A stretch of DNA of 64,000 nucleotides from an uncultured virus (IMG/VR IMGVR_UViG_3300018080_006410) (IMGVR_UViG_3300018080_006410); one strand, 5' to 3'; positions 21,799 through 48,702 are shown, counted from the stretch's first letter. Numbers and translations are program-made. The notes: generated by a model from the sequence alone, not told the origin.

Positions 21799-22140
21799 TC
21801 ACCCCGACCCCCTCGCCGGGTTCGGCACAGGAGCCCCTCCGTCGCTCACGTCCCAGGACCTCACCTCGTTCGCCTCGCCCTCCAGCAGCAGGAACTCCTT
21901 GTCGCCCCCCGGTCGCCCGACGACGGCCCTCCCGTTCCTCCGCAGCAAGTCGCAGACCCTTCGGTAGGTGAGCGGCGACTCGGTCGCCACGACGTCGTCG
22001 TAGGCCACCATGGAGGACTCCAGGTCCGGCACGAGGCCGACCATGGAGTCCCACGCGTTCTTCTTCTGGGTGAAGGTCCCGCGCACGAACATGCGCCCGA
22101 CCCCGGGCATCCTCTGAGCCATGACCACAAGCCTAGCCAT
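21799..22140 (-). CDS. Hypothetical protein
   Basis: ORF coupled to ATPase stop. Confidence 0.55.
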   Translation of the reverse strand: MARLVVMAQRMPGVGRMFVRGTFTQKKNAWDSMVGLVPDLESSMVAYDDVVATESPLTYRRVCDLLRRNGRAVVGRPGGDKEFLLLEGEANEVRSWDVSDGGAPVPNPARGSG

Positions 22141-38491: not shown

Positions 38492-38707
38492 CTACTTGTC
38501 GTCCACCTTCTCCATGGCCGCGGCGAGCCCCTCGTAGTCCCTCATGAGCTCCGCCTCGTCGGCGTAAGACGTCCGGTTCTGCGTCCCCGACCTGTGCGTC
38601 ACGTGCAGCCCGCGCACGACCTCACCCTTGTTCCCCTGCGACGTCGAGACGCCAACCTCCGCCAGCTCCTCGACCCTCACCGTGAACCATTTGCCCCGAT
38701 AGATCAT
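38492..38707 (-). CDS. Hypothetical protein
   Basis: MIYRGKWFTV... Confidence 0.5.
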   Translation of the reverse strand: MIYRGKWFTVRVEELAEVGVSTSQGNKGEVVRGLHVTHRSGTQNRTSYADEAELMRDYEGLAAAMEKVDDK

Positions 38708-38880
38708 CTCGCATCTCCTTGTTCTCGCTCTCTGGCTACCGCCACCAGTCCGCAAAGCTCTCCATCCCATTCTACGTCGTCAGCGCCCTCCATGATTCGT
38801 CATGGGATTATACGCCGCCAAGGAGGAGAAGAAAGACGCGGCCTGCCCTCGGGCTCGGACCAGGGACGCGGAACGGAGGA

Positions 38881-38952
38881 TGGAGCCCCTGCCAGAATCG
38901 AACTGGCGTCTGGGCGCCACAAGTGCCCAGCTCTCCATTGAGCCGGGGACGT
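38881..38952 (-). pseudogene. Degenerate tRNA-like element (possible Thr TGT)
   Basis: D arm GCTC/GAGC, T arm GCCAG-TTCGATT-CTGGC, CCA end; imperfect acceptor and anticodon stems. Confidence 0.5.
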
Positions 38953-39058
38953 CAAGAAAGACCCCCGGGCCCACCCTTCCAACCGGTGTGGCCGCCTCCC
39001 GTGCAACTAGTATAGGAGCCGGACGTCGGAGTCGAACCGACAGGGGTCGAAAACCAAA

Positions 39059-39136
39059 TGGCCTCGAACGACAGGGCTCGAACCTGCGTCCTCCCGGAAA
39101 AAGAGCCGGGACGCTCTACCACTGAGCTACGTCGAG
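39059..39136 (-). ncRNA. tRNA-like RNA with 6-bp anticodon stem and 8-nt loop (copy 1)
   Basis: TCCCGG-CTCTTTTT-CCGGGA arm, canonical D/T arms, bulged acceptor stem, G73-CCA. Confidence 0.75.
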
Positions 39137-39143
39137 ACAAGAT

Positions 39144-39220
39144 TGGCAGGTGAGGCAGGGCTCGAACCTGCGTCCTCCCGGAAAAAGAGCCGGGACGCTC
39201 TACCACTGAGCTACACACCT
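39144..39220 (-). ncRNA. tRNA-like RNA with 6-bp anticodon stem and 8-nt loop (copy 2)
   Basis: 59-nt core identical to copy 1, different acceptor stem, G73-CCA. Confidence 0.75.
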
Positions 39221-39233
39221 GCATCCACTCCTA

Positions 39234-40676
39234 CTATACGCCCGCGGCCCGGACCTTCCGGCCCGACCCGTGAGAATTCGCGTCGGTCGCCCCGAGCGCG
39301 AAGCCGTCGCCGTCCCTGTCGACATGGAAGCCGCCGGCCGGGAGATGCTCGGCCCTGAGGGCCTTGGCCGAGAAGACCCCGGCCCTCCGCAGGGCGAGAG
39401 CCAGTCCCGGGCTCGACACGGCGACGCCGTGCACCAGCTCGGGGGTCGGCGTGAACTCCACGGCCCGGGCACGCCTCCTCGGCCCGACCCAGGACGCCGG
39501 CTCGACGCCGTGCCTCTCGCACGCGGCCACCACCATCTCCTTCGTGCACCGCTCCTTGCCCGCGACGACGTCCCACGGGTACGGAAGCTCAGCCCACACC
39601 TTGGTCCCCGGATGGACGTCGCCGCCCGAGGCCAGGTGCCAACGGACCACGTCCGCCGCCATCAGCCTCATGACCTTGCCCGGGCACAGGGCCTCAAGCA
39701 TGGAGCCCATGCCCATGGCGTGAAGCATCGACACCCAGTGGTCCCGGGCCTTGTTCCACCCGCCGGCCGACTGGTTCCACGTCGACGAGTCGCACCCGCG
39801 CCGCACCACCATCCTCTCCAGGTCGATGCCGCCGCCGGAACCCTCCCAGACCTCCGTGAGAAGGTCGCACGCGTCCTCCAGGAGACCCCACGCCCTCGCG
39901 AGCATGGCGCCCTTCTGGTAGTCCGTCAGGAGCCTCAGGACCCTGTCCACCGGATAGACGGCGGCCACGACGTCCCACCTGGCCGTGTTGGACTTGGTCA
40001 GGCGGTCGTACAGCATCTTGGCCACCACGTCGAAGGCCCGAACCTGGGAGTCGTTCGTGAAGGTGCTCCGAAGGCTCATCCTCGCGCTCATGTACGCCAC
40101 GAAGCAGGCCGTGCCCAGGTCGGCGGAGAAGTCGTCGAAGTCGATCTCCACGGCGAAGCCGCTCTTGCCGATCCGGGTCAGGACGTACTTCTTCCGCTCG
40201 CGGACCATCCTCAGGAGCTTGGACTCCATCCGGCCCAGGAGCCTGAAGCGCTTGTTGTAGGCGCGGTGCCCCATGTCGAGGCCCGCCTGCGCCCGCTGCT
40301 CCCGGTTCATCCGGTGCTTCAGGAAGTCGGACTGCCCGTAGCTCTTGCCGATGGCCGACGACACGCCCTGGACGAAGACCTCCACCCTCTCCGGGTCGAG
40401 GCACTCCTCCACCGACAGCATCGGAACGGAGAAGAGCTCGGACGCCACCTTGACCGGCTTCTCCATGCCCGTCGGGCGATGGAAGTCCGCGGCCATGGAC
40501 GAGTAGCCCAGGAGGTGGCTCCTCGTCGAGATCCTGGTCGCCTGCTTCAAGACGTTCCTCTGGGCCAGCGACAGCCGCGGAAGCAATGCCTCCAGCACGA
40601 CCTCGGCAACATCCTCCGGACGCGGACGCGTCTGAACGCACTCGTACAGCTTCCGAATCGTCTCTTCCCTCTTCAT
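39234..40676 (-). CDS. 480-aa protein of unknown function embedded among tRNA genes
   Basis: Long ORF with RBS; no motif I can assign. Confidence 0.8.
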   Translation of the reverse strand: MKREETIRKLYECVQTRPRPEDVAEVVLEALLPRLSLAQRNVLKQATRISTRSHLLGYSSMAADFHRPTGMEKPVKVASELFSVPMLSVEECLDPERVEVFVQGVSSAIGKSYGQSDFLKHRMNREQRAQAGLDMGHRAYNKRFRLLGRMESKLLRMVRERKKYVLTRIGKSGFAVEIDFDDFSADLGTACFVAYMSARMSLRSTFTNDSQVRAFDVVAKMLYDRLTKSNTARWDVVAAVYPVDRVLRLLTDYQKGAMLARAWGLLEDACDLLTEVWEGSGGGIDLERMVVRRGCDSSTWNQSAGGWNKARDHWVSMLHAMGMGSMLEALCPGKVMRLMAADVVRWHLASGGDVHPGTKVWAELPYPWDVVAGKERCTKEMVVAACERHGVEPASWVGPRRRARAVEFTPTPELVHGVAVSSPGLALALRRAGVFSAKALRAEHLPAGGFHVDRDGDGFALGATDANSHGSGRKVRAAGV

Positions 40677-40726
40677 GTCCCTGCCTCCTTTTCCCTGACG
40701 GCCGATCTCGTCGACCCGGCTTGAGT

Positions 40727-40800
40727 TGGTTCCCCCACCTGGACTCGAACCAGGACCAAAGGATTAACAGTCCTACGTGCTACCATTACACCATGGGGGA
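40727..40800 (-). tRNA. tRNA-Asn(GTT)
   Basis: Cloverleaf, loop CT-GTT-AA, CCA. Confidence 0.9.
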
Positions 40801-40803
40801 GTC

Positions 40804-40880
40804 TGGAGCCCAGAGAGGGACTCGAACCCTCGACCTGCCGATTACGAATCGGCTGCTCTTAGCCACTGAGCTATCCGGGC
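40804..40880 (-). tRNA. tRNA-Thr(CGT)
   Basis: Cloverleaf, loop TT-CGT-AA, CCA. Confidence 0.92.
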
Positions 40881-40998
40881 TTAATGCGGGCCTGCTCTCA
40901 CCCGAGTCACACCACTTCTCCTCCAGCCTGGTCGTCCACGGGTTCGTCCCCGCTCGTCGCCGGACCTTCTTCGGACAGGCAGGTGTCGCCTAAGTTGT

Positions 40999-41094
40999 TG
41001 GAGCCGATGTCTGGACTTGAACCGCCTCGACTACGCGCGCTGATCGAGGAAAACCTCCGGTTTACCCGGTGTGCTACCATTACACCACATCGGC
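40999..41094 (-). pseudogene. Aberrant Thr-like tRNA
   Basis: Perfect acceptor GCCGATG/CATCGGC and D arm; shrunken anticodon arm CCGG-GTAAA-CCGG; extra hairpin; broken T stem. Confidence 0.55.
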
Positions 41095-41105
41095 ATCTGA
41101 ATTGT

Positions 41106-41182
41106 TGGCACACCCGCTCGGGTTCGAACCGAGAACCTGCTGATTAAGAGTCAGCCGCTCTAGCCAACTGAGCTACGGGTGC
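41106..41182 (-). tRNA. tRNA-Lys(CTT)
   Basis: Cloverleaf, loop CT-CTT-AA, G73-CCA. Confidence 0.92.
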
Positions 41183-41203
41183 GAATAGACTCTCCTGTCG
41201 AGT

Positions 41204-41277
41204 TGGAGGTCCCGGCAGGGCTCGAACCTGCGGCCACGCGGTCCGAGCCGCCCGCTCTACCTCTAAGCTACGGAACC
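41204..41277 (-). pseudogene. tRNA-like element with 6-nt anticodon loop (CTCGGA)
   Basis: Good acceptor, D and T arms; loop one nt short. Confidence 0.6.
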
Positions 41278-41307
41278 TCGATCACATCTCCTTCTGTTGA
41301 ACCTCGT

Positions 41308-41344
41308 CTCCACCCTACATTGCCGAACGAGCAAGGTTTTCCAC
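41308..41344 (-). promoter_or_regulatory. Class A promoter-like motif inside tRNA unit 1
   Basis: GTGGAAAACCTTGCTCGTTCGGCAATGTAGGGTGGAG. Confidence 0.65.
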
Positions 41345-41358
41345 TCGCTCCGAATTTC

Positions 41359-41434
41359 TGGTCGGCTCGGAGGGACTCGAACCCTCGGCGTTCCGCTTAA
41401 AAGGCGGATGCTCTACCAACTGAGCTACGAGCCG
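41359..41434 (-). tRNA. tRNA-Lys(TTT)
   Basis: Cloverleaf, loop CT-TTT-AA. Confidence 0.93.
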
Positions 41435-41438
41435 TTCT

Positions 41439-41515
41439 TGGCAGGCCCGCTCGGGGTCGAACCGAGAACCGCCGGTTTTGGAGACCGGTGCTCTAGCCGA
41501 TTGAGCTACGGACCT
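41439..41515 (-). tRNA. tRNA-Trp(CCA)
   Basis: Cloverleaf, loop CT-CCA-AA. Confidence 0.93.
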
Positions 41516-41526
41516 ATCATGAAACC

Positions 41527-41602
41527 TGGTGCGACAGACGGGGCTCGAACCCGTGGCCTCCTGCTTGGCAAGCAGGTGCTCTTCCGACTGAGCTACTGCC
41601 GC
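41527..41602 (-). tRNA. tRNA-Gly(GCC)
   Basis: Cloverleaf, loop TT-GCC-AA. Confidence 0.93.
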
Positions 41603-41637
41603 AAAGAAAAACCCCCGCGCCCTTTCGGGCCGGGGGT
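41603..41637 (-). terminator. Attenuator terminator 1
   Basis: ACCCCCGGCCC-GAAA-GGGCGCGGGGGT-TTTTCTTT directly 5' of tRNA-Gly. Confidence 0.85.
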
Positions 41638-41659
41638 CTCACAGCGCGCTCGCCACCGT

Positions 41660-41743
41660 CTACGCTTGAACTCCAAGCGAAAGACCCCCGTGGGCGGGCT
41701 TGCCGCCCCAGGTATTGTCTTTCGTTGTGGTTCCCGTCAGCAT
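41660..41743 (-). CDS. Leader peptide 1 (MLTGTTTKDNTWGGKPAHGGLSLGVQA)
   Basis: 27-aa ORF between promoter and terminator; Thr/Lys/Asn/Trp/Gly codons; contains antiterminator strand. Confidence 0.75.
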   Translation of the reverse strand: MLTGTTTKDNTWGGKPAHGGLSLGVQA

Positions 41744-41767
41744 GACGTAGTTGCCTTTCGTTGCCTT

Positions 41768-41796
41768 ATTATACGCCGCTCGCCCGAATTTGCCAA
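41768..41796 (-). promoter_or_regulatory. Sigma70-like promoter of tRNA unit 1
   Basis: TTGGCA-N17-TATAAT. Confidence 0.8.
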
Positions 41797-41858
41797 GCGA
41801 CCTCTCGGTTTTTCCGACGGGGATCGAGGCCGGCCCCGGCCTGCCCGCGCCCAGGAGA

Positions 41859-41932
41859 TGGCTGCCCCGCCTGGACTCGAACCAGAACCGAGTGCTCCAA
41901 AGACACTTGTGCTGCCATTACACCACGGGGCA
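41859..41932 (-). tRNA. tRNA-Gln(TTG)
   Basis: Cloverleaf, loop CT-TTG-GA. Confidence 0.92.
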
Positions 41933-41951
41933 ATCCATGGCCGGACGGGCC

Positions 41952-42839
41952 CTAACACCCTCTGATAAAGTCCCAAAGCCCCTCCCGGTCAACATCGGCC
42001 AAGACCCTGGTGTTCGTCCCCTCCTCGACCTTCGTCCCCCACCAGCCTCCCTCCCGGTACAACCTTCCGCCAACCCAGGTCCCGATCTCGGGATGCAGAT
42101 GGCACACGGCAGCGGTCGGGTCGTGGAACTTCTTCTCCCGGTGCCTCTTCCCGTAGAGATAGAGGTCCATGCCTTCCATGAACAGCTCCATCGCCCGGCA
42201 GGAAGGCTTCCTGCGCCTCATCCACTCGTGCCTCGCCCTGTCGTACAGGATCGTGTGACAGACGTTCTTGCCGACGAACCTCAGGTCCCCGACCTTCGCC
42301 CGCGACGCCAGGAACAAGCCCTCGTCCTTCGACCCGTTCAAGTTGAAGGTAGGCACGGCCACCTTGCCCTTGAACTTGGGAAGCCTCTCGACGTCATGGC
42401 CATGAAGGTCGTATCCCAGAAAGCCACCCTGCATCGTGACCCGCCCGAACTCCCTCTCCGGATGCTCGATCATGTAGCGGCCCACGTTCTTCACCGGCCC
42501 GCAGATGAAGACGTCGCTGTCCGGATGGTCCTCGAGAACCCCGCCCAGAAGCTCGTGGCCGAAGCCGTCGGGGTCCGCCTCGGTCGGATGTCCCATCTTC
42601 CTCAGGAGCGCCATGTGGAACGACGTCCCTCCGGTCTTGACGACGCTCGTCTCCTTCGCGATCCCGACAGGGACATCCAGGCCGACCTCCGCGCAGAAGG
42701 CCCTCGCGATGGCGACCTGGTACCGGTGTCCGGGAGAGACGAGGATCGCCCTGATCCTGACACCCGCGGCGTGCAGGTGGCACAGCGTGAAGTAGTCGTC
42801 GGGATCGTGCCCGATGTCGGTTTCCACTATCAGGTCCAT
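41952..42839 (-). CDS. Nucleoside hydrolase family protein
   Basis: N-terminal ETDIGHDPDD (DxDxxxDD-like), CGPVKN, MQGG, TFNL, FHDP. Confidence 0.75.
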   Translation of the reverse strand: MDLIVETDIGHDPDDYFTLCHLHAAGVRIRAILVSPGHRYQVAIARAFCAEVGLDVPVGIAKETSVVKTGGTSFHMALLRKMGHPTEADPDGFGHELLGGVLEDHPDSDVFICGPVKNVGRYMIEHPEREFGRVTMQGGFLGYDLHGHDVERLPKFKGKVAVPTFNLNGSKDEGLFLASRAKVGDLRFVGKNVCHTILYDRARHEWMRRRKPSCRAMELFMEGMDLYLYGKRHREKKFHDPTAAVCHLHPEIGTWVGGRLYREGGWWGTKVEEGTNTRVLADVDREGLWDFIRGC

Positions 42840-43019
42840 CAATCGTCTTCCTCCATCTTCCTGCCTGCGAAAAGGTCCGTAGGTGTAAGCGCCCAGAGCT
42901 ACGGAGGCCGAGTGTTGTTGACGCAGTTTCCTCACTTCCTATCCCTTTCGGGTCTCGTTACTGCGAGAGTTTTTTGTTTTTGCGGTCCAGTTTCTCCACG
43001 TCTGGACACATCCCGAGAC

Positions 43020-43096
43020 TGGTCGGGCGGGCCGGGCTCGAACCGGCGACCTCAGCGCCCCAAACGCCGCGCGCTTCCAAACTGCGCCACCGCCCG
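43020..43096 (-). tRNA. tRNA-Pro(TGG)
   Basis: Cloverleaf, loop TT-TGG-GG. Confidence 0.93.
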
Positions 43097-43101
43097 AAAA
43101 C

Positions 43102-43178
43102 TGGTCGGGATGAGAGGATTTGAACCTCCGGCTTCCTCGCCCCGAACGAGGCGCTCTACCAGACTGAGCCACATCCCG
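43102..43178 (-). tRNA. tRNA-Pro(CGG)
   Basis: Cloverleaf, loop TT-CGG-GG. Confidence 0.93.
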
Positions 43179-43347
43179 ATAAGATGTCGCGGCCGCCGCC
43201 AGACGGAACGGGCGTCGGCGAACGGCGGCTTCGGACGTCACCCCACCACCGATTTCCGACAGTGCCTTCTTCCGAGCAATACCCGGTTGGCGCCCATCTG
43301 ATGACTTTCCCTCGCCGGTACCGGCCATCATCGCAACAAAAAACTAG

Positions 43348-43419
43348 TTGGCCCGCTCGGGATTGAACCGAGGACCCCGCAATTATGAGTCGCATGCTCT
43401 ACCGCTGAGCTACGGGCCA
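43348..43419 (-). tRNA. tRNA-Met/Ile2(CAT)
   Basis: Cloverleaf, loop CT-CAT-AA; followed by CTA rather than CCA. Confidence 0.85.
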
Positions 43420-43427
43420 TCTAAAAC

Positions 43428-43502
43428 TGGTAGCCCCAGGGGGAATCGAACCCCCGTCTCCGGGATGAAAACCCGACGTCCTTGCCACTAGACGATGGGG
43501 CC
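43428..43502 (-). tRNA. tRNA-Glu(TTC)
   Basis: Cloverleaf, loop TT-TTC-AT. Confidence 0.92.
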
Positions 43503-43567
43503 AAGTGGGACGCTTGCCCATTCACGCTTCAGGCGACGGAGTCAAACCGCTCGTCACGTCCCGATAT

Positions 43568-43646
43568 TGGTGGCGGGGGTGGGAGTTGAACCCACATGCT
43601 CCAGGTTATGAGCCTGGCGTCTTACCAAATCGACATTCACCCCGCT
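43568..43646 (-). tRNA. tRNA-Met(CAT), initiator-like
   Basis: Loop CT-CAT-AA; 1:72 mismatch (A:C). Confidence 0.8.
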
Positions 43647-43656
43647 CTCAAGTCTA

Positions 43657-43733
43657 TGGTCGGGATGGCAGGAATCGAACCTGCGACCTTCCGGCCCCCA
43701 GCCGGACGCTCTACCAGACTGAGCCACATCCCG
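43657..43733 (-). tRNA. tRNA-Pro(GGG)
   Basis: Cloverleaf, loop CT-GGG-GG. Confidence 0.92.
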
Positions 43734-43845
43734 AGTTCGGGGGAGTTTGCCGCTCCCCCAGGACTGCCGTCTACCCGCTTCTGCGCGTCTTGGAACTCGG
43801 CAAAGCCCGCGACTTGCTTTCCGGCCATATTGCAGCCCTCAATCC

Positions 43846-43920
43846 TGGCATCCCCAGCCGGACTCGAACCGGCGTCACGAGGTTGAGGGCCTCGCATCCT
43901 GGCCGCTAGACGATGGGGAC
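43846..43920 (-). tRNA. tRNA-Glu(CTC)
   Basis: Cloverleaf, loop CC-CTC-AA. Confidence 0.9.
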
Positions 43921-43934
43921 ACATATTCAATTGT

Positions 43935-44011
43935 TGGTCGGCCCAGGAGGAATCGAACCTCCGACCTAACGGTTATCAGCCGTTCGCTCTTACCAACTGA
44001 GCTATGGGCCG
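43935..44011 (-). tRNA. tRNA-Ile(GAT)
   Basis: Cloverleaf, loop CT-GAT-AA. Confidence 0.93.
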
Positions 44012-44042
44012 ACATGTTGCTCTCGCCTCTCTCCTTGACTGA

Positions 44043-44119
44043 TGGTGGGCGGTGCGAGACTCGAACTCGCAACCTTCAGCATGTCGAGCTGACGTTCTAG
44101 CCATCTGAACTAACCGCCC
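44043..44119 (-). tRNA. tRNA-Val(GAC)
   Basis: Cloverleaf, loop TC-GAC-AT. Confidence 0.9.
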
Positions 44120-44121
44120 AT

Positions 44122-44198
44122 TGGCACGCCCGGAAGGATTCGAACCTTCGACCCGCGCATTAGAAGTGCGCTGCTCGTATCCCCTGAGCTACGGGCGC
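44122..44198 (-). tRNA. tRNA-Arg(TCT)
   Basis: Cloverleaf, loop CT-TCT-AA. Confidence 0.93.
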
Positions 44199-44206
44199 TC
44201 GATATC

Positions 44207-44280
44207 TGGCTGCCCGGCAAGGACTCGAACCCTGACCGACTGGGCCAGAACCAGCTGTGCTGCCATTACACCACCGGGCA
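44207..44280 (-). tRNA. tRNA-Gln(CTG)
   Basis: Cloverleaf, loop TT-CTG-GC. Confidence 0.92.
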
Positions 44281-44286
44281 TCGAAC

Positions 44287-44362
44287 TGGTGACCACGGAA
44301 GGACTCGAACCTTCGACCATCCGGGTGTGGACCGGACGCTCCTGCCGCTGAGCTACGTGGCC
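44287..44362 (-). tRNA. tRNA-Val(CAC)
   Basis: Cloverleaf, loop TC-CAC-AC. Confidence 0.88.
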
Positions 44363-44369
44363 GTGATAT

Positions 44370-44447
44370 TGGCGGTGACGAAGGGATTTGAACCCTCGTT
44401 CTCTGCCGTGACAGGACAGCGCTTTCGGCCAACTAAGCTACGCCACC
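44370..44447 (-). tRNA. tRNA-Asp(GTC)
   Basis: Cloverleaf, loop CT-GTC-AC, G73. Confidence 0.92.
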
Positions 44448-44456
44448 GCATGATCC

Positions 44457-44534
44457 TGGGCGCCCCGACGGGACTCGAACCCGCGGCCTCCCGGGCCACG
44501 ACCGGGCGCTCTTCCTGACCGAGCTCCGAGGCGC
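44457..44534 (-). tRNA. tRNA-His(GTG)
   Basis: Loop TC-GTG-GC, G-1:C73. Confidence 0.9.
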
Positions 44535-44545
44535 ATCTGAATTGT

Positions 44546-44623
44546 TGGTGGACCGACAGGGGATCGAACCCTGGACATCCTGATTGCAAGTCAGGTGCTC
44601 TTAGCCAACTGAGCTACCGGCCC
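44546..44623 (-). tRNA. tRNA-Ala(TGC)
   Basis: Loop CT-TGC-AA, G3:U70. Confidence 0.93.
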
Positions 44624-44659
44624 GTCCTGCTCGTGACTCGCCCTCCTTCTCTCGACTCC

Positions 44660-44699
44660 AAAGAAAAACCCCCGACGCCCTTTTCGGGGTGCCGGGGGT
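44660..44699 (-). terminator. Attenuator terminator 2
   Basis: ACCCCCGGCACCCC-GAAAA-GGGCGTCGGGGGT-TTTTCTTT upstream of tRNA-Ala. Confidence 0.85.
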
Positions 44700-44716
44700 C
44701 CTTGGACCTATCAGGG

Positions 44717-44797
44717 TCAGAACACAGCACCCCCGGCACCCGCGTTCGCGGGCTGCTCGATCGCTTCGTGTCTGGCCATCGGGTTCATTGAGTACAT
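44717..44797 (-). CDS. Leader peptide 2 (MYSMNPMARHEAIEQPANAGAGGAVF)
   Basis: 26-aa ORF with AAGGAG RBS between promoter and terminator; contains 13-nt antiterminator strand. Confidence 0.8.
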   Translation of the reverse strand: MYSMNPMARHEAIEQPANAGAGGAVF

Positions 44798-44812
44798 TGC
44801 TCCTTGCCTATT

Positions 44813-44842
44813 ATCATACGCCGTCAACGCCAGTCTTACCAG
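44813..44842 (-). promoter_or_regulatory. Sigma70-like promoter of tRNA unit 2
   Basis: CTGGTA-N18-TATGAT with GGCG extension. Confidence 0.65.
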
Positions 44843-44874
44843 CCCCCTCGGAGATTTTTCCGAGAACCGGCCCG

Positions 44875-45498
44875 TCAGCCCTCCAGCTCGACGTCCCAGT
44901 ACATGGCGCCGAGGAAGTCCTCCCACGACCTGGGAGGGTCCCTCAGGATGCCACGCCTGTTGACGACGGCCCAGTGCGGCTCCCTCGGCTCCCTCAGGAG
45001 CGTCAGGCCCGCCTCCCTGGGCGTCCGGCTGTCCTTCTTGTGGTTGCACCTCACGCACGAGAGAACCAGGTTCTCCCAGGTCGTGCCTCCACCCCTGGAC
45101 TTGGGGACCACGTGGTCGATGTTGAGCTTGGAGGCCGGCAGCTTCTTGCCGCAGTACTGACAGACGTTCCGGTCGCGGGCGAAGATCGCCTTCCGGCAGA
45201 GCTTGGCCCGACGACGCCAGAAGCGGACCTTCCGGACGAGCCGGATGACCTCCGGCGCCGGGAAGGCGAAGCTCCTGGAACGCACGAGGGGGCGCCCCGA
45301 CTCGGCCATCTCCGCGGCCCTGGCCGCGTCGGACCAGCTCTCGACCCACTCCTCGAAGCCGTAGAGGGAGTAGTCATTGTCGACGACGTCGGCCTTCCCC
45401 GCGCACACCTTGCACAGGGCCCCGACCACGTTCGTCACGTCCACCGGCCTCCACGAGCCGTCAAGCACCAGGACCCGCCTGTCAAGCACTCCCGTCAT
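44875..45498 (-). CDS. HNH endonuclease
   Basis: IFARDRNVCQYCG, IDHVVPKSRGG, WENLVLSCVRCNHKK. Confidence 0.92.
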   Translation of the reverse strand: MTGVLDRRVLVLDGSWRPVDVTNVVGALCKVCAGKADVVDNDYSLYGFEEWVESWSDAARAAEMAESGRPLVRSRSFAFPAPEVIRLVRKVRFWRRRAKLCRKAIFARDRNVCQYCGKKLPASKLNIDHVVPKSRGGGTTWENLVLSCVRCNHKKDSRTPREAGLTLLREPREPHWAVVNRRGILRDPPRSWEDFLGAMYWDVELEG

Positions 45499-45601
45499 CG
45501 CCCCGCTCCTTCTCGTAGTCGTCGATCGTCACCTCGCCTCAAGCCTCGCGGCGCACCTCCTGGCCTATTGTACACCGCCAGAGGCCCGTCTTCAAAGAGG
45601 A

Positions 45602-45678
45602 TGGTCCGTCTGGTAGGGATCGAACCTACAACCTGTCGCGTATGAGACGACCGCTCTAACCAACTGAGCTACAGACGG
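45602..45678 (-). tRNA. tRNA-Met/Ile2(CAT)
   Basis: Cloverleaf, loop CT-CAT-AC. Confidence 0.9.
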
Positions 45679-45685
45679 ATAATTC

Positions 45686-45761
45686 TGGAGGACCCGGCGG
45701 GACTCGAACCCGCGACCTTCGGCTTCGGAGACCGATGTTCTTCCAACTGAACTACAGGTCC
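45686..45761 (-). tRNA. tRNA-Arg(CCG)
   Basis: Cloverleaf, loop CT-CCG-AA. Confidence 0.92.
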
Positions 45762-45768
45762 TCAAAGT

Positions 45769-45846
45769 TGGCACGCCCGGCAGGATTCAAACCTGCGACT
45801 TCCCCGTCCGTAGCGGGGCGCTCTATTCAGACTGAGCTACGGGCGC
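45769..45846 (-). tRNA. tRNA-Arg(ACG)
   Basis: Cloverleaf, loop CT-ACG-GA. Confidence 0.9.
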
Positions 45847-45852
45847 TCATTA

Positions 45853-46518
45853 TCAAAACTTCCCAGGCTCCCACCAGGAGGCCGACTTCCGGCTTTCGTA
45901 AGACCTGTCCAGCTGGTGGCCCCTGCAAAAGTCCCTGGTTCCTCTCCAGAGGTGATGCACGTAGTCCTGGACCGGGAAGTCCACCAGCATCGACTCCATC
46001 CTCTTGACCCTCAGCTCGTACATCGGCGCCACCAGCGCAAGCCCGTGGTCCGTGAACGGCTCGAACCGCCGATAGTACCCGACATGGAAGAGGCACGTCG
46101 ACGAATGAAGGTACGAAACCTTCTCGCCTCCCACCGGCCTTTTCACCGGCGCGACCGGCCCTATCCCGTACCACCTGGTCTTCCGGCCCCCGACCTTCGC
46201 CAGGGCGTCCTCCAGCAAGTTCGGCTCGTACATCTCCGTATCGCTGTCCAGCATCAGCAGCACGTCGGCCTCCGTCGCCCACAGCGCCACGTTCATCCCC
46301 GGCCCATGGCCGATGTTGGACCCCACCCGGATAAGCCTCACCCGGTTCCTCTTCGCCCATTTCCTGACGTTCCTCGGAGCGACCCCCTCGGTGTTGTCCA
46401 CCACGAAGAAGTCGATGTCCGGATAGAACCTCCTCACCGACGCCACCGCCTTCCTCATCAGGCCGTAGGTGTGATAGACGACCATCGCCGCGGCCACCCG
46501 ACAGCCCTCGATCTTCAT
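45853..46518 (-). CDS. Glycosyltransferase family 2 protein
   Basis: FVVDN, NIGHGPGMN, LLMLDSD. Confidence 0.8.
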   Translation of the reverse strand: MKIEGCRVAAAMVVYHTYGLMRKAVASVRRFYPDIDFFVVDNTEGVAPRNVRKWAKRNRVRLIRVGSNIGHGPGMNVALWATEADVLLMLDSDTEMYEPNLLEDALAKVGGRKTRWYGIGPVAPVKRPVGGEKVSYLHSSTCLFHVGYYRRFEPFTDHGLALVAPMYELRVKRMESMLVDFPVQDYVHHLWRGTRDFCRGHQLDRSYESRKSASWWEPGKF

Positions 46519-46550
46519 CAGCAACCTCCTTTGGGTTGCCCTTAACATAC

Positions 46551-46641
46551 TGGCGGAGAGCCGGGGACTCCAACCCCGAAGCCCGGTTTCCCGGACCGAC
46601 GCCGTTTCCAACGGCGCTCCTCATGCAGCCGGATGCTCTCC
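46551..46641 (-). tRNA. tRNA-Ser(GGA)
   Basis: Loop TT-GGA-AA, long variable arm; atypical T loop TTGGAGT. Confidence 0.85.
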
Positions 46642-46649
46642 TCAAAGTC

Positions 46650-46819
46650 TGAAGCCGACGGGACTCGAACCCGCATCCCGGTGCGTCCTGCCCATTCCGC
46701 AGCCCGCGTGGCTGGCCATGTCACAGCCCTTTGGACTCGCAGGCGTCACCCGTCGCGCTTGCGCCTCGACGGGCTATGCGGCGCTCCGCTCCGGCCCTTG
46801 CCATTAGGTGGACGGCCTC
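46650..46819 (-). ncRNA. 170-nt tRNA-like RNA with Ala-type acceptor and ~100-nt insert replacing the anticodon loop
   Basis: GAGGCCG/CGGCTTC (G3:U70), A73, D arm CCT-AATGGCA-AGG, T arm GCGGG-TTCGAGT-CCCGT. Confidence 0.7.
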
Positions 46820-46827
46820 ATCGAAAA

Positions 46828-46903
46828 TGGAGACGGGGGAGGGACTCGAACCCTCATGAACGCGGGTTGCAACCGCGCGCCTAAACCTCTCAGCCACCCC
46901 GCC
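46828..46903 (-). tRNA. tRNA-Cys(GCA)
   Basis: Loop TT-GCA-AC, U73. Confidence 0.92.
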
Positions 46904-46941
46904 AAAAATCTCCTTTGCTACACTGCTACACTGCTACACCT

Positions 46942-47025
46942 TGGTGCCCGAGACAGGGATCGAACCTGCACGCCTTTCGACAGCCGAACTTAAACCGGCC
47001 GCGTCTGCCATTCCGCCACTCGGGC
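46942..47025 (-). tRNA. tRNA-Leu(TAA)
   Basis: Loop TT-TAA-GT, variable arm. Confidence 0.92.
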
Positions 47026-47030
47026 CAAAT

Positions 47031-47107
47031 TGGTGGTGAGAGTCGGAATCGAACCAACGACGCCTCGGGCTTCAACCGAGTGCTCTACCGGACTGAGCTA
47101 CCTCACC
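47031..47107 (-). tRNA. tRNA-Phe(GAA)
   Basis: Loop TT-GAA-GC. Confidence 0.93.
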
Positions 47108-47185
47108 GAAAGTCCCTTCCAGTTCTGGCCGGGCGTTTGGACCCGTCGGGCTGCCAAGCCCGAGCACCGGTCGGGACACAATCTT

Positions 47186-47276
47186 TGGCGGAGAGCCGGG
47201 GAATCGAACCCCGAAACCCCGTTTCCAGGGCCTACCGGTTTAGCAAACCGACTCCTCGTCCATCCGGACGCTCTCC
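47186..47276 (-). tRNA. tRNA-Ser(GCT)
   Basis: Loop TT-GCT-AA, long variable arm. Confidence 0.9.
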
Positions 47277-47281
47277 ACTAT

Positions 47282-47458
47282 TCAAATCTCCTCGTACTTC
47301 CCCCAGAAACCCATCGGGCACGACTCTTCTGCCAACGACGCCTTTCGTCTGACGTTGCACCTCTCCACCAAGCACACCATCGCCTTGGCGTCCATCTTAC
47401 GACACGGCTTGCACCAACGGTCAAGTCGCTCGCGTATCACCGAGTTTGGCGCCCTCAC
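47282..47458 (-). CDS. Small Cys-rich protein (58 aa) inside tRNA unit 3
   Basis: AGGAGG RBS, GTG start, WCKPC...VC..RC...SCPMGFW; below ORF-track size cut-off. Confidence 0.65.
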   Translation of the reverse strand: MRAPNSVIRERLDRWCKPCRKMDAKAMVCLVERCNVRRKASLAEESCPMGFWGKYEEI

Positions 47459-47474
47459 TCCTTCCTCCTATCAA

Positions 47475-47551
47475 TGGTGCAGTGGACGCGAATCGAACGC
47501 GCGACCTTCCGCTTGGAAGGCGGAAGCTCTACCTGGCTGAGCTACCACTGC
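47475..47551 (-). tRNA. tRNA-Gly(TCC)
   Basis: Loop CT-TCC-AA. Confidence 0.92.
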
Positions 47552-47560
47552 GTCTAAATC

Positions 47561-47646
47561 TGGTGCCCGAGGAGGGAGTCGAACCCTCACCGCCTTTCGG
47601 CACTGCGGTCTGAGCGCAGCGTGTCTGCCAATTCCACCACCCGGGC
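47561..47646 (-). tRNA. tRNA-Leu(CAG)
   Basis: Loop CT-CAG-AC, variable arm. Confidence 0.92.
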
Positions 47647-47744
47647 TTGTTGCCGGGTTCTCTCCACCCGGCGAAGTCACGCCTTTGCATACCCCACAAG
47701 ACGTTAATGGGTTGCACCGAGGTTTGAAGCCCCGGTCCACATCT

Positions 47745-47835
47745 TGGCGGAGAGCCGGAGACTCGAACTCCGAAGCCCCGTTCCCGGGACCTACGCGCTT
47801 TCGAAACGCGCTCCTCATCCGGCCGGATGCTCTCC
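47745..47835 (-). tRNA. tRNA-Ser(CGA)
   Basis: Loop TT-CGA-AA, long variable arm. Confidence 0.9.
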
Positions 47836-47843
47836 ATGATTCC

Positions 47844-47930
47844 TGGTGACCCCGGGGAGACTCGAACTCCCACGCCCTCTCGGGCCCCCGGCCCTCAACC
47901 GGGGCCGTATGCCAATTCCGGCACGGGACC
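47844..47930 (-). tRNA. tRNA-Leu(GAG)
   Basis: Loop TT-GAG-GG, variable arm. Confidence 0.92.
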
Positions 47931-47943
47931 ACTGTTCAGTTGT

Positions 47944-48029
47944 TGGTGCGCCGAGATGGAGTCGAACCATCAAAGCCCGAAGGCGCCGATTTTACAGACC
48001 GGGGAGCTCGCCAAATGCTCAGCCGACGC
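47944..48029 (-). tRNA. tRNA-Tyr(GTA)
   Basis: Loop CT-GTA-AA, variable arm. Confidence 0.9.
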
Positions 48030-48091
48030 ATCTCGTCGTCGATCATCTCCTTCTCTCGATCCCGGACTCGCTATCTCGTTCCATTTGTTGC

Positions 48092-48176
48092 TGGTAGCCC
48101 AGGGGAGAGTCGAACTCCCATCCCCGAAGGGACCCGATTTTGAATCGGGCGCGTATGCCAATTCCGCCACTGGGCC
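48092..48176 (-). tRNA. tRNA-Leu(CAA)
   Basis: Loop TT-CAA-AA, variable arm. Confidence 0.92.
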
Positions 48177-48185
48177 TTTCAATCC

Positions 48186-48276
48186 TGGAGGAGGGCCGGG
48201 GACTCCAACCCCGAGACCCCGTTTCCAGGGCCTACCCGATTTCAAATCGAGCTCCTCGTGCAGCCGGTCGCCCTCC
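48186..48276 (-). tRNA. tRNA-Ser(TGA)
   Basis: Loop TT-TGA-AA, long variable arm; atypical T loop TTGGAGT. Confidence 0.85.
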
Positions 48277-48278
48277 AG

Positions 48279-48315
48279 AAACAGAAAAACCCCCGGAGGC
48301 TTTCGCGTCCGGGGG
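48279..48315 (-). terminator. Attenuator terminator 3
   Basis: CCCCCGGACGC-GAAA-GCCTCCGGGGG-TTTTTCTGTTT directly 5' of tRNA-Ser(TGA). Confidence 0.85.
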
Positions 48316-48335
48316 CCTAGGGGCTTCGACGAGCG

Positions 48336-48425
48336 TCAACGCAGCCCGGACGCAGGCGTAAGGCGGAACGAGGAATATCCCCGCCCACAACATGCCAACA
48401 TCAGGTTGCGACTCTGCTTGTCCAT
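48336..48425 (-). CDS. Leader peptide 3 (MDKQSRNLMLACCGRGYSSFRLTPASGLR)
   Basis: 29-aa ORF between promoter and terminator; Ser/Arg/Leu/Cys/Gly/Tyr/Phe codons; contains antiterminator strand. Confidence 0.8.
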   Translation of the reverse strand: MDKQSRNLMLACCGRGYSSFRLTPASGLR

Positions 48426-48493
48426 CGTCTCTCTCGGTTTGTGGGGTCCAGCCCTGGAATTGGCCAGGACCCTCACCCGTCGTCCAAAATCCC

Positions 48494-48523
48494 ATTATAC
48501 ACCCTCGGGCGCCGACTTGCCAA
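48494..48523 (-). promoter_or_regulatory. Sigma70-like promoter of tRNA unit 3
   Basis: TTGGCA-N18-TATAAT with TG just upstream of the -10. Confidence 0.8.
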
Positions 48524-48702
48524 CCCCGTCGCCGGATTTTCCCGACGTGCCTTCGGCACCTTTGTCCTCGCACTCCCGGCAGACCGTCTCGAACTCCATG
48601 AACGGGTGGCAGCTCCTGTCGCCCCGGTCCCTCGGCCCCAGATAGCCCACATCCATCATGCTCTCGATCTCGGCGCCGCACCGGGTGCAGATCAGCTGTT
48701 CG

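What the first reader, a model, noticed from the sequence alone, without database searches (positions are those of the whole stretch)
41603..41796. Attenuator 1: leader lists Thr/Lys/Asn/Trp/Gly
Codons 3-15 read ACG GGA ACC ACA ACG AAA GAC AAT ACC TGG GGC GGC AAG. All six intact downstream tRNAs (Gly GCC, Trp, Lys TTT, Lys CTT, Thr CGT, Asn) have a cognate codon. The ACC and ACA codons may be relics matching the decayed Thr-like genes at 40999 and 38881. Antiterminator CGGGGGTCT (41682-41690) complements AGACCCCCG (41631-41639). Caveats: the stop is ~6 codons beyond the antiterminator, so occlusion is less obvious, and a class A promoter motif at 41308 could bypass control for the distal genes.
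Basis: partly seen in the sequence, partly recalled or inferred. Interest (0 to 1): 0.85.

Follow-up and report, generated by a model that had tools for sequence, protein, structure and literature searches.

The report
Leader-peptide attenuators gating phage tRNA blocks
A large uncultured phage puts each of its three blocks of tRNA genes behind a tiny test gene spelled in the codons those tRNAs read, followed by a switchable transcription stop, so it probably makes a tRNA set only when ribosomes read those codons slowly.

Summary
On the minus strand, 41796-41603 holds a near-consensus sigma-70 promoter, a 27-codon ORF and a strong intrinsic terminator that ends on the first base of tRNA-Gly(GCC). 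All 6 clear downstream tRNAs have a cognate codon in the ORF. The quoted 9-nt antiterminator pairing is exact.

It is one of three paralogous units in the window, heading blocks of about 13, 16 and 6 tRNA genes. Each leader matches its own block (anticodons covered 13/13, 13/15, 6/6), not the others (2-6), and only in the ORF frame.

Folding supports a kinetic switch. Before the terminator's 3' arm exists, its 5' arm pairs with the ORF's 3' part. A ribosome on the last 10 or so codons blocks that pairing.

Pattern scans of IMG/VR found the same skeleton before tRNA arrays in two unrelated AT-rich phage lineages, with matching leaders.

Weak points:
- There is no expression data.
- No close relative of this phage was found.
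- Unit C has a weak Shine-Dalgarno site.
- The unit C terminator dominates at equilibrium.
- A ribosome at the unit C stop codon does not cover the antiterminator.

My literature searches found no description of leader-peptide control of tRNA genes. This scan has already noted the same kind of element on other phage DNA.

Best reading: multivalent ribosome-mediated attenuation of tRNA genes, confidence about 0.65.

The parts
41768..41796 (-). Unit C promoter, TTGGCA-N17-TATAAT
   Evidence: 11 of 12 consensus matches. One of only 2 exact TTGGCA-N16-18-TATAAT sites in 64 kb, 0 expected.
41660..41743 (-). Unit C leader ORF, 27 codons plus stop: MLTGTTTKDNTWGGKPAHGGLSLGVQA*
   Evidence: Own-block anticodons covered 6/6. 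Best window 12/13 residues, reached by 0 of 100000 simulations. The match is frame-specific. The Shine-Dalgarno pairing is weak, -3.5 kcal/mol.
41703..41724 (-). Segment 1 of unit C (codons 7-14: Thr, Lys, Asp, Asn, Thr, Trp, Gly, Gly). It pairs with segment 2 in the free full-length RNA.
   Evidence: MFE structures; coordinates read.
41678..41698 (-). Segment 2 of unit C, the antiterminator strand, with core CGGGGGTCT at 41682-41690
   Evidence: Exact 9-nt complement of 41631-41639. In the truncated RNA it pairs with the terminator's 5' arm.
41603..41640 (-). Unit C intrinsic terminator: hairpin 41640-41611 and T-tract to 41603. It abuts tRNA-Gly at 41602.
   Evidence: The motif family CCGGGGGTTTTTCT gives 5 matches in the window against 0.32 expected.
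40727..41602 (-). tRNA block C: Gly(GCC), Trp(CCA), Lys(TTT), a tRNA with a 6-nt anticodon loop, Lys(CTT), a 96-nt Ser(GGA)-like gene, Thr(CGT), Asn(GTT)
   Evidence: ARAGORN and Rfam.
44813..44842 (-). Unit B promoter, CTGGTA-N18-TATGAT
   Evidence: Read by eye. It aligns with the promoters of units A and C in alignment A1. It falls below the threshold of the scan.
44717..44797 (-). Unit B leader ORF: MYSMNPMARHEAIEQPANAGAGGAVF*
   Evidence: 13/15 own anticodons are covered. Codons 9-17 are 9/9 cognate, including the rare AGA read by tRNA-Arg(TCT). The 13-nt antiterminator GGGTGCCGGGGGT at 44729-44741 is reached by 0 of 5000 shuffles.
44662..44701 (-). Unit B intrinsic terminator
   Evidence: With a ribosome at codons 5-11 the terminator pair probability falls to 0.00-0.08. 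With a ribosome at codons 16-27 it is 0.93-0.95.
41859..44623 (-). tRNA block B: Ala, His, Asp, Val, Gln, Arg(TCT), Val, Ile, Glu, Pro, a CAT tRNA, Glu, Met, Pro, Pro, then a nucleoside-hydrolase-like ORF, then Gln(TTG)
48494..48523 (-). Unit A promoter, TTGGCA-N18-TATAAT
48336..48425 (-). Unit A leader ORF: MDKQSRNLMLACCGRGYSSFRLTPASGLR*
   Evidence: 13/13 own anticodons are covered, reached by 5 of 200000 random peptides. The best window has 15/18 cognate codons, reached by 7 of 100000. The antiterminator GCGTCCGGG at 48345-48353 lies 6 nt before the stop and is reached by 29 of 5000 shuffles.
48283..48316 (-). Unit A intrinsic terminator
45602..48276 (-). tRNA block A: Ser(TGA), Leu, Tyr, Leu, Ser, Leu, Gly(TCC), Ser, Phe, Leu, Cys, Ser(GGA)-like, then a glycosyltransferase ORF, then Arg, Arg, Met
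   Evidence: Ser(TGA) at 48190-48276 and Ser(GGA) at about 46552-46645 are found only at a relaxed ARAGORN threshold.

Best explanation
Unit C, like its paralogs A and B, is a ribosome-mediated (leader-peptide) transcription attenuator. Its regulated genes are tRNA genes.

Proposed mechanism:
1. A sigma-70-type promoter starts a leader transcript of about 160 nt.
2. A ribosome translates the 27-codon ORF. Codons 3-15 sample ACG, AAA, AAG, AAT, TGG and GGC, which are the codons read by the tRNAs encoded just downstream.
3. If one of these tRNAs is scarce or damaged, the ribosome stalls with its A site at or before codon 14. CGGGGGUCU then stays free to pair with AGACCCCCG as soon as that is transcribed. 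The terminator cannot nucleate, and RNA polymerase runs into tRNA-Gly through tRNA-Asn.
4. If decoding is fast, the ribosome moves over codons 15-26 and covers the antiterminator strand, or the upstream 1:2 hairpin re-forms behind it. The terminator then forms, and transcription ends at the T-tract that abuts the first tRNA.

The three leaders divide the 20 amino acids among three separately inducible tRNA regulons. The result would be a supply-sensing feedback on decoding capacity during infection.

Shown here: the anatomy, the codon-to-tRNA match and the alternative pairings. Inferred: translation of the ORF, kinetic control, and the physiological signal.
For: Three paralogous units:
- The three units share the promoter, an internal CGGGGGT and the terminator. 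They differ in the codon list (alignment A1).

Codon match:
- Own-block anticodon coverage is 13/13, 13/15 and 6/6. Off-diagonal values are 2-6.
- Random peptides reach the observed coverage in 5, 4213 and 6767 of 200000 trials for units A, B and C.
- Best-window tests are reached in 7, 1333 and 132 of 100000 simulations at codon level. For unit C at amino-acid level the figure is 0 of 100000.
- The match is specific to the ORF frame in all three units.

Antiterminator and folding:
- Antiterminator complements of 9, 13 and 9 nt are reached by 29, 0 and 73 of 5000 shuffles.
- In RNA truncated before the terminator's 3' arm, the 5' arm is paired upstream at 0.73-0.93 when the ribosome is absent or early. 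This falls to 0.29-0.65 when the ribosome sits on roughly the last 10 codons.
- By my hand count, cognate codons cluster in the permissive zone: 30 of 46 codons, against 11 of 33 in the blocked zone.
- Unit B also switches at equilibrium.

Other points:
- Rfam finds no known riboswitch, T-box or leader in the units.
- Scans for the bare 2:3:4 skeleton, with no tRNA or ORF requirement, found two AT-rich IMG/VR lineages carrying it directly before tRNA arrays.
- L027 has leader MNTKYTNNYEWCGCEPPGGVL* before Trp-Cys-Glu-Asn, with 4/4 anticodons covered and 8/20 codons cognate. Both values together are reached by 307 of 200000 random peptides.
- L044 has leader MKMTTQQKHMQKHICIRWFSEGGSC* before Trp-Ile-Lys-Gln-Cys-Met-Arg-His-Phe, with 16/24 codons cognate and 8/9 anticodons covered, reached by 542 of 100000.
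Against: - There is no transcript or ribosome data. No RNA run holding this DNA is listed.
- No close relative of this phage was found, so conservation of these particular leaders is untested.
- Shine-Dalgarno pairing is weak for units C (-3.5) and A (-4.9). The median is -7.4 for 32 predicted genes and -5.7 for random AUGs. Unit B has a good Shine-Dalgarno site, but it sits 1 or 10 nt from the candidate starts.
- At equilibrium the terminators of units A and C stay formed at every ribosome position: 0.99 for A and 0.60-0.92 for C. The switch must therefore be kinetic.
- In unit C a ribosome at codon 27 or at the stop leaves the antiterminator free, with the 5' arm paired at 0.94 and 0.91.
- Each codon occurs only 1-3 times, not in runs, so sensitivity to mild starvation would be low.
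- Unit C also contains GGA, ACC, ACA and GAC, for which block C has no clear tRNA.
- Unit B lacks codons for Asp(GTC) and Val(GAC).
- 68 of the 80 loci read from the relaxed pattern scan have no tRNA within 80 nt downstream, so the skeleton alone is not specific.
Confidence: 0.65

Rival explanations
1. These are three small standalone RNA genes, each a promoter plus about 130-200 nt plus a terminator. They would be phage sRNAs. Their short ORFs would be incidental, and the tRNAs would be transcribed by leak-through or from other promoters.
For: The order promoter, short transcript, strong terminator fits an sRNA gene. The leaders are highly structured, z = -4.09. Shine-Dalgarno sites are weak in units A and C. 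The terminators of A and C dominate at equilibrium.
Against: This does not explain the frame-specific match of each ORF to its own tRNA block. It does not explain why the same is seen in L027 and L044. It does not explain the placement of the antiterminator strand inside the last codons of each ORF. No other sigma-70-like promoter lies between the terminator and the first tRNAs of any block.
Confidence: 0.12
2. These are constitutive leaky terminators or insulators. They would end the upstream transcription units (an HNH gene before unit B, a nucleoside hydrolase gene and tRNA-Gln before unit C) and set a fixed, low read-through into the next tRNA block. Translation would play no regulatory part.
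For: Each terminator also lies downstream of a preceding gene or tRNA set with no other terminator called in between. Equilibrium folds of A and C keep the terminator formed.
Against: A dedicated near-consensus promoter lies upstream of each terminator, not downstream of it. The codon lists and antiterminator complements would be unexplained.
Confidence: 0.1
3. The units are translation-coupled switches that report general translation capacity (ribosome availability, overall elongation rate, or antibiotic or stress stalls) and not the specific tRNAs of the block.
For: Each leader has many different codons used once or twice, behaving like a broad sample. Earlier notes of this scan describe 'all-amino-acid' leaders in other phages (unchecked by me).
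Against: In this window the three leaders are block-specific rather than general. Off-diagonal coverage is only 2-6.
Confidence: 0.08
4. The leader RNA senses tRNA directly, in the manner of a T-box or another riboswitch, and the ORF is irrelevant.
For: The regulated genes are tRNAs. The leader is structured.
Against: There is no T-box or other Rfam family hit at E <= 1 in the units. A single RNA could hardly bind 6-15 different tRNAs. The frame-specific codon signal would be unexplained.
Confidence: 0.03

Closest known systems
Multivalent leader-peptide attenuators of enterobacterial amino-acid operons (ilvGMEDA leader with Ile/Val/Leu codons; thr leader with Thr/Ile codons). Named from established knowledge, not from a call.
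   Same: A promoter, a short ORF enriched in the codons that report on the regulated product, mutually exclusive antiterminator and terminator hairpins, an intrinsic terminator before the regulated genes, and more than one amino acid sensed by a single leader.
   Different: The regulated genes here are tRNA genes, not biosynthetic enzymes. Up to 13 tRNA species are sampled, each by 1-3 codons and not by runs. Three leaders in one genome divide the 20 amino acids among them. There is no sequence or Rfam similarity.
trp operon leader trpL, with the 1:2 / 2:3 / 3:4 model (established knowledge)
   Same: Unit C has a 1:2 hairpin whose segment 1 carries the regulatory codons, a 2:3 antiterminator and a 3:4 terminator. 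As I recall for trp, the terminator is the more stable structure, so control would be kinetic.
   Different: In unit C the stop codon lies 19 nt beyond segment 2, so a terminating ribosome does not mask it. Units A and B have the classical spacing of 6 and 9 nt. The target is a set of tRNA genes.
T-box riboswitches (established knowledge)
   Same: They control translation-apparatus genes through an antiterminator/terminator choice that reports tRNA status.
   Different: A T-box binds one uncharged tRNA directly and has no leader peptide. No T-box hit was found here.
Leader-attenuator units before phage tRNA arrays noted earlier by this scan on other DNA, and the L027 and L044 lineages that I found myself
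   Same: The architecture and codon-to-tRNA logic are the same. Units B and C, L027 and L044 even share the GGGGGT...ACCCCC...GGGGGTTTTT skeleton, with GGGGGT read as GGG GGT (Gly-Gly) in the leader frame.
   Different: This window is a 65% GC, huge-phage-like contig from sediment or seawater. It has three units and about 40 tRNA genes. The others are AT-rich or belong to other lineages. None is a sequence relative of this phage.

Membership tests
Ribosome-mediated (leader-peptide) transcription attenuator | A promoter followed by a short ORF inside the 5' leader of the regulated genes | tested here: met
   The promoter matches 11/12 positions. The 27-codon ORF lies at 41743-41660. The same arrangement is found in units A and B.
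Ribosome-mediated (leader-peptide) transcription attenuator | The ORF is enriched in codons that report on the regulated product | tested here: met
   Own-block coverage is 13/13, 13/15 and 6/6, against 2-6 for other blocks. The match is frame-specific.
Ribosome-mediated (leader-peptide) transcription attenuator | An intrinsic terminator lies between the ORF and the regulated genes | tested here: met
   A GC-rich hairpin with a T-tract lies 0-38 nt before the first tRNA.
Ribosome-mediated (leader-peptide) transcription attenuator | An antiterminator pairing that excludes the terminator and overlaps the 3' part of the ORF | tested here: met
   Perfect complements of 9, 13 and 9 nt lie 6, 9 and 19 nt before the stop codons. 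Shuffles reach them in 29, 0 and 73 of 5000 trials. They form in the truncated RNA.
Ribosome-mediated (leader-peptide) transcription attenuator | The position of the ribosome decides which structure forms | tested here: inconclusive
   Mask-and-fold on truncated RNA gives the expected switch in all three units and in L027. At equilibrium on the full RNA only unit B switches. In unit C a ribosome at the stop codon does not block the antiterminator.
Ribosome-mediated (leader-peptide) transcription attenuator | The leader ORF is translated | tested here: inconclusive
   Shine-Dalgarno pairing is -3.5 for C, -4.9 for A and -7.5 for B (with odd spacing in B), against a gene median of -7.4. No ribosome or RNA data exist.
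Ribosome-mediated (leader-peptide) transcription attenuator | Read-through rises when the cognate charged tRNA is scarce | not testable with these tools
   This needs a reporter, in vitro transcription-translation, or an infection experiment.
T-box riboswitch | Specifier loop and T-box sequence, as captured by the Rfam model | tested here: not met
   There is no T-box hit at E <= 1 in 38700-48600 or at the gathering score in the whole window.
Rfam amino-acid operon leaders (trp, his, leu, thr and similar) | A match to the curated covariance models | tested here: not met
   None is listed. In the units only noise-level sRNA hits appear (NsiR1 at E 0.42, isrK at E 0.38).

The most novel reading that the evidence does not exclude
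Units B and C here and the L027 and L044 units are members of one ancient or mobile attenuator cassette. It would be defined by a Gly-Gly GGG-GGU antiterminator and an ACCCCC...GGGGGUUUUU terminator. Very different phages would re-programme it simply by rewriting the codon list to match whichever tRNAs follow. In this phage, three such cassettes would split all 20 amino acids into three independently inducible tRNA regulons. Together they would act as a sensor-and-repair circuit against loss of host tRNA, for example from host shut-off or host anticodon nucleases.
Probability: 0.3. Interest if true: 0.9.

Novelty: new variant of a known kind. Interest (0 to 1): 0.8.

Why it matters
Phage tRNA genes are usually discussed as codon-usage helpers or as spares against host tRNA cleavage. 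How they are regulated is largely unknown.

A leader peptide written in the codons of the tRNAs it gates would be a direct feedback loop. It would run from decoding speed to tRNA supply, using the classical attenuation mechanism on a new class of target.

The idea is easy to test. Recoding a few leader codons should re-address the switch to other tRNAs.

It also offers a natural, programmable reporter of the availability of individual tRNAs.

Finding it three times in one genome, with the 20 amino acids divided among the three leaders, makes a chance origin unlikely. So does finding it in unrelated phage lineages.

Tried and rejected
Relatives of this phage:
- Megablast of 40700-43100 against phage records found no match.
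- tblastn with the CobT-like protein found only hits below 31% identity.
- IMG/VR scans with five proteins gave nothing close. The nucleoside hydrolase hit one AT-rich 572-kb contig at 43% identity with no tRNAs nearby. The 480-aa ORF hit nothing. The glycosyltransferase hit 6 loci at 24-31% identity, which I did not follow. The CobS-like and 518-aa proteins hit nothing.
- The metagenome scan with the 480-aa ORF gave 9 loci, none with a tRNA array upstream.
- The genome contigs pattern scan gave 9 loci. In the 5 of 9 loci scanned for tRNAs, 4 hold a bacterial tRNA-Asn gene overlapping the match and 1 (L125) holds none. In the 2 whose sequence I read (L122, L130), the first GGGGGT of the match lies in the tRNA's T-arm and is followed by a terminator. 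The hits are irrelevant.

Other dead ends:
- No whole genome is held for this window.
- Sequencing runs: no RNA holder is listed.
- Laying contigs of 4 runs showed the same phage at low depth in two runs and a diverged strain in run X8. It gave no usable variant calls in the leaders.
- I recalled that E. coli pheV has a leader attenuator. I could not confirm this. The K-12 pheV upstream region shows no leader ORF or terminator, and the paper I recalled is not held. I make no such claim.
- In the strict pattern scan, 6 of the 18 loci had no tRNA in the locus. By eye, 3 of these (L020, L022, L023) are ordinary gene-end terminators. The other 3 were not characterised.
- In the relaxed scan, 68 of the 80 loci read have no same-strand tRNA within 80 nt downstream.
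- A direct-repeat search of the array failed on a strand parameter and I did not repeat it.
Only my hand counts are given.

Full report
CONTEXT

The window is 62-72% GC with a strong strand bias; nearly all genes lie on the minus strand. It encodes an NAD-dependent DNA ligase, a CobS/CobT-like pair, an intein-bearing ATPase, several glycosyltransferases and an HNH endonuclease. Most ORFs have no PHROG or Pfam family. This profile fits a large uncultured phage.

The DNA is held by five sediment or seawater metagenome runs. No whole genome is held for the window.

ARAGORN finds 39 tRNA genes, 38 of them on the minus strand between 39059 and 48176. Rfam confirms 35.

THE OBSERVATION

On the minus strand, TTGGCA-N17-TATAAT lies at 41796-41768 and matches 11 of 12 consensus positions. 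The ORF at 41743-41660 reads MLTGTTTKDNTWGGKPAHGGLSLGVQA*. CGGGGGTCT at 41690-41682 is the exact complement of AGACCCCCG at 41639-41631.

A GC-rich hairpin at 41640-41611 is followed by a T-tract that ends at 41603. This is one base before tRNA-Gly(GCC). The leader folds far better than shuffles, z = -4.09.

IT IS ONE OF THREE

Reading the whole array shows two more units with the same build:
- Unit A: promoter 48523-48494, ORF 48425-48336, terminator ending at 48283.
- Unit B: promoter 44842-44813, ORF 44797-44717, terminator ending at 44662.

Aligned, the three share the promoter, an internal CGGGGGT and the terminator CCCCCGG..GAAA..CGGGGGTTTTTCT. They differ in the ORF body (alignment A1).

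The exact promoter motif occurs twice in 64 kb, 0 expected, both times at block heads. The terminator motif gives 5 matches against 0.32 expected.

CODON MATCH

I defined each block as the tRNAs between one terminator and the next unit. I used simple wobble rules: G34 reads C/U, C34 reads G, U34 reads A/G, A34 reads U/C/A.

- The number of distinct anticodons with a cognate codon in the leader is 13/13, 13/15 and 6/6 on the diagonal. Off the diagonal it is 2-6.
- Random peptides drawn from the codon usage of 32 predicted genes reach the observed coverage in 5, 4213 and 6767 of 200000 trials.
- The best-window statistic, corrected by simulation, is 15/18 cognate codons for A (reached by 7 of 100000), 9/9 for B (1333 of 100000) and 7/9 for C (132 of 100000).
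- At amino-acid level, C has 12/13 residues in the set, reached by 0 of 100000.
- Over the whole ORF, B is not significant (14/25, P = 0.23). C is modest at codon level (9/26, P = 0.019).
- The signal is confined to the ORF frame: 18 against 9 and 10; 14 against 7 and 8; 9 against 3 and 3.
- Leader B uses the rare AGA, read by tRNA-Arg(TCT) of its own block.
- At a relaxed ARAGORN threshold, block A also holds Ser(TGA) right after the terminator and a Ser(GGA)-like gene. These would make the two TCC codons of leader A cognate.
- Together the three blocks, and the three leaders, cover all 20 amino acids. Only Gly, Arg and Met are shared between blocks.

RNA LOGIC

Each ORF carries, in its last third, a perfect complement of the terminator's 5' arm: 9, 13 and 9 nt long. 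Shuffles reach these lengths in 29, 0 and 73 of 5000 trials. The complements end 6, 9 and 19 nt before the stop codon.

I masked 30 nt around each A-site codon and refolded.

On RNA truncated before the terminator's 3' arm, which is the state when the decision is made:
- The 5' arm is paired upstream at 0.73-0.93 with no ribosome or an early one.
- This falls to 0.29-0.65 with the ribosome on roughly the last ten codons.
- The listed codons lie in the permissive zone. By my hand count, 30 of 46 permissive codons are cognate, against 11 of 33 blocked ones.

On the complete RNA at equilibrium:
- Only unit B switches. Its terminator probability is 0.00-0.08 with the ribosome at codons 5-11, and 0.93-0.95 at codons 16-27.
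- Terminator A stays at 0.99 and C at 0.60-0.92.
- Control must therefore be kinetic. As I recall, this is also the accepted view for trp, where 3:4 is the more stable structure.

Unit C differs from A and B in two ways:
- It has a long 1:2 hairpin whose segment 1 is codons 7-14.
- A ribosome at codon 27 or at the stop leaves the antiterminator free, with the 5' arm paired at 0.94 and 0.91.

For unit C, termination after fast translation would need the ribosome still on codons 15-26 when the 3' arm emerges, or re-formation of 1:2 behind it. The latter is the MFE state with a ribosome at the stop codon.

WEAKNESSES

- Shine-Dalgarno pairing is poor for C (-3.5 kcal/mol) and A (-4.9). The median is -7.4 for genes and -5.7 for random AUGs. 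B has AAGGAG, but it lies 1 or 10 nt from the candidate starts.
- No RNA run is listed.
- No close relative was found by any route, so conservation of these leaders is untested.
- Leader C contains GGA, ACC, ACA and GAC with no clear tRNA in its block.
38882-38951 is weakly Thr(TGT)-like. 40999-41094 is Ser(GGA)-like, not Thr.
- I could not confirm a promoter at 41308.

INDEPENDENT INSTANCES

I scanned IMG/VR for the bare skeleton, with no tRNA or ORF requirement.

Strict pattern (CGGGGGT, gap, CCCCCGG, gap, CGGGGGTTTTT):
- It gave 18 loci. 12 of them have tRNA-Trp 2-3 nt downstream.
- All 12 belong to one near-identical AT-rich lineage (alignment A2).
- The other 6 loci had no tRNA. By eye, 3 are gene-end terminators.

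The L027 lineage:
- A TTGACA-17-TATACT promoter and an AAGGA Shine-Dalgarno site precede the leader MNTKYTNNYEWCGCEPPGGVL*.
- The leader is followed by Trp, Cys, Glu and Asn tRNAs.
- 4/4 anticodons are covered and 8/20 codons are cognate. Both together are reached by 307 of 200000 random peptides.
- In the truncated fold the antiterminator is at 0.84 with the ribosome at codons 1-12, and at about 0.1 from codon 14 to the stop.

Relaxed pattern:
- 80 loci were read. 12 have a same-strand tRNA within 80 nt: 11 from the L027 lineage, plus L044.

The L044 locus:
- A perfect TTGACA-17-TATAAT promoter precedes the leader MKMTTQQKHMQKHICIRWFSEGGSC*.
- The leader is followed by Trp, Ile, Lys, Gln, Cys, Met, Arg, His and Phe tRNAs.
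- 16/24 codons are cognate (binomial 1.7e-4). 8/9 anticodons and 9/9 amino acids are covered, reached by 542 of 100000.

In units B and C, L027 and L044, GGGGGT is read GGG GGT in the leader frame. This hints at common descent of the cassette. The pattern itself selected for GGGGGT, though not for its frame.

WHAT IS KNOWN

- Rfam has no family for these leaders.
- Seven full-text searches found nothing on leader-peptide or attenuator control of tRNA genes or phage tRNA arrays. For these I saw search listings only. For PMC3082878 and PMC7049720 I also read the matched passages; neither bears on the point.
- The closest known systems are the multivalent leader-peptide attenuators of amino-acid operons. 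This comparison rests on established knowledge, not on a call.
- This scan has already noted the same kind of element on other phage DNA. Eight notes came from a word search, one of them marked 'checked later: what was seen stands'. Two more notes concern the L027 lineage itself. These are AI notes. I used them as leads only and tested only the L027 lineage myself.

VERDICT

The best explanation is ribosome-mediated attenuation of tRNA gene blocks, each gated by a leader that lists its own tRNAs' codons. My confidence is about 0.65. Translation of the ORFs, kinetic control and the physiological trigger remain inferred.

This is a new variant of a known mechanism applied to a new class of target. 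As far as my searches show, it is unpublished.

Noticed in passing
window 39234-40676 (-) with 39059-39220 (-); loci L008-L016: A 480-aa ORF with no Pfam or PHROG family has relatives at 43-56% identity in 9 metagenome loci. In 7 of these it is followed closely by 1-3 tRNA genes. These are either Gln(CTG), Lys(CTT), Glu(CTC) or Pro(CGG), or tRNA-like genes that ARAGORN calls with 4-base anticodons. The other 2 loci show none. In the window the same position holds two tRNA-like genes with an 8-nt anticodon loop ('cttt'). This is a conserved protein-plus-tRNA module of unknown role.
   Followed up: partly
window 41204-41277 (-): This tRNA gene scores 49.8 bits in Rfam. ARAGORN gives it a 2-base anticodon ('cg'), meaning a 6-nt anticodon loop. 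It sits inside block C.
   Followed up: no
window 40727-48276 (-): The three tRNA blocks divide the 20 amino acids almost without overlap. Block A carries S, L, Y, G, F, C, R, M. Block B carries A, H, D, V, Q, R, I, E, P, M. Block C carries G, W, K, T, N.
   Followed up: partly
window 44875-45498 (-) and 45567-45595 (-): An HNH endonuclease gene with its own sigma-70-like promoter (TTGAAG-17-TACAAT) sits inside the array, between block A and unit B.
   Followed up: no
window 47277-47475 (-) and 45853-46611 (-): Two protein genes lie embedded among the tRNAs of block A. One is a small Cys-rich ORF with a strong Shine-Dalgarno site. The other is a family-2 glycosyltransferase.
   Followed up: no
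window about 48040-48060 and 41290-41310 (-): A Shine-Dalgarno-like motif, AGAAGGAGATG(T)GATCGA, recurs just before two tRNA genes, Tyr and the 6-nt-loop tRNA. Seen by eye.
   Followed up: no
window 22140-24716 (-): An 858-aa ATPase-like protein is interrupted by an intein with a LAGLIDADG domain.
   Followed up: no
run X8 laid on window 40700-48600: One sediment run holds a diverged strain of this phage. Examples are a contig piece over 48287-48431 with 5 differences and one over 47878-48256 with 25 differences and 15 gaps. Assembling it would allow a test of leader conservation.
   Followed up: no
window units B and C; L027 2451-2516; L044 (minus strand, near 2140-2065): In all four leaders the antiterminator core GGGGGT is read in the same frame, as GGG GGT (Gly-Gly), near the C-terminus of the peptide.
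   Followed up: partly
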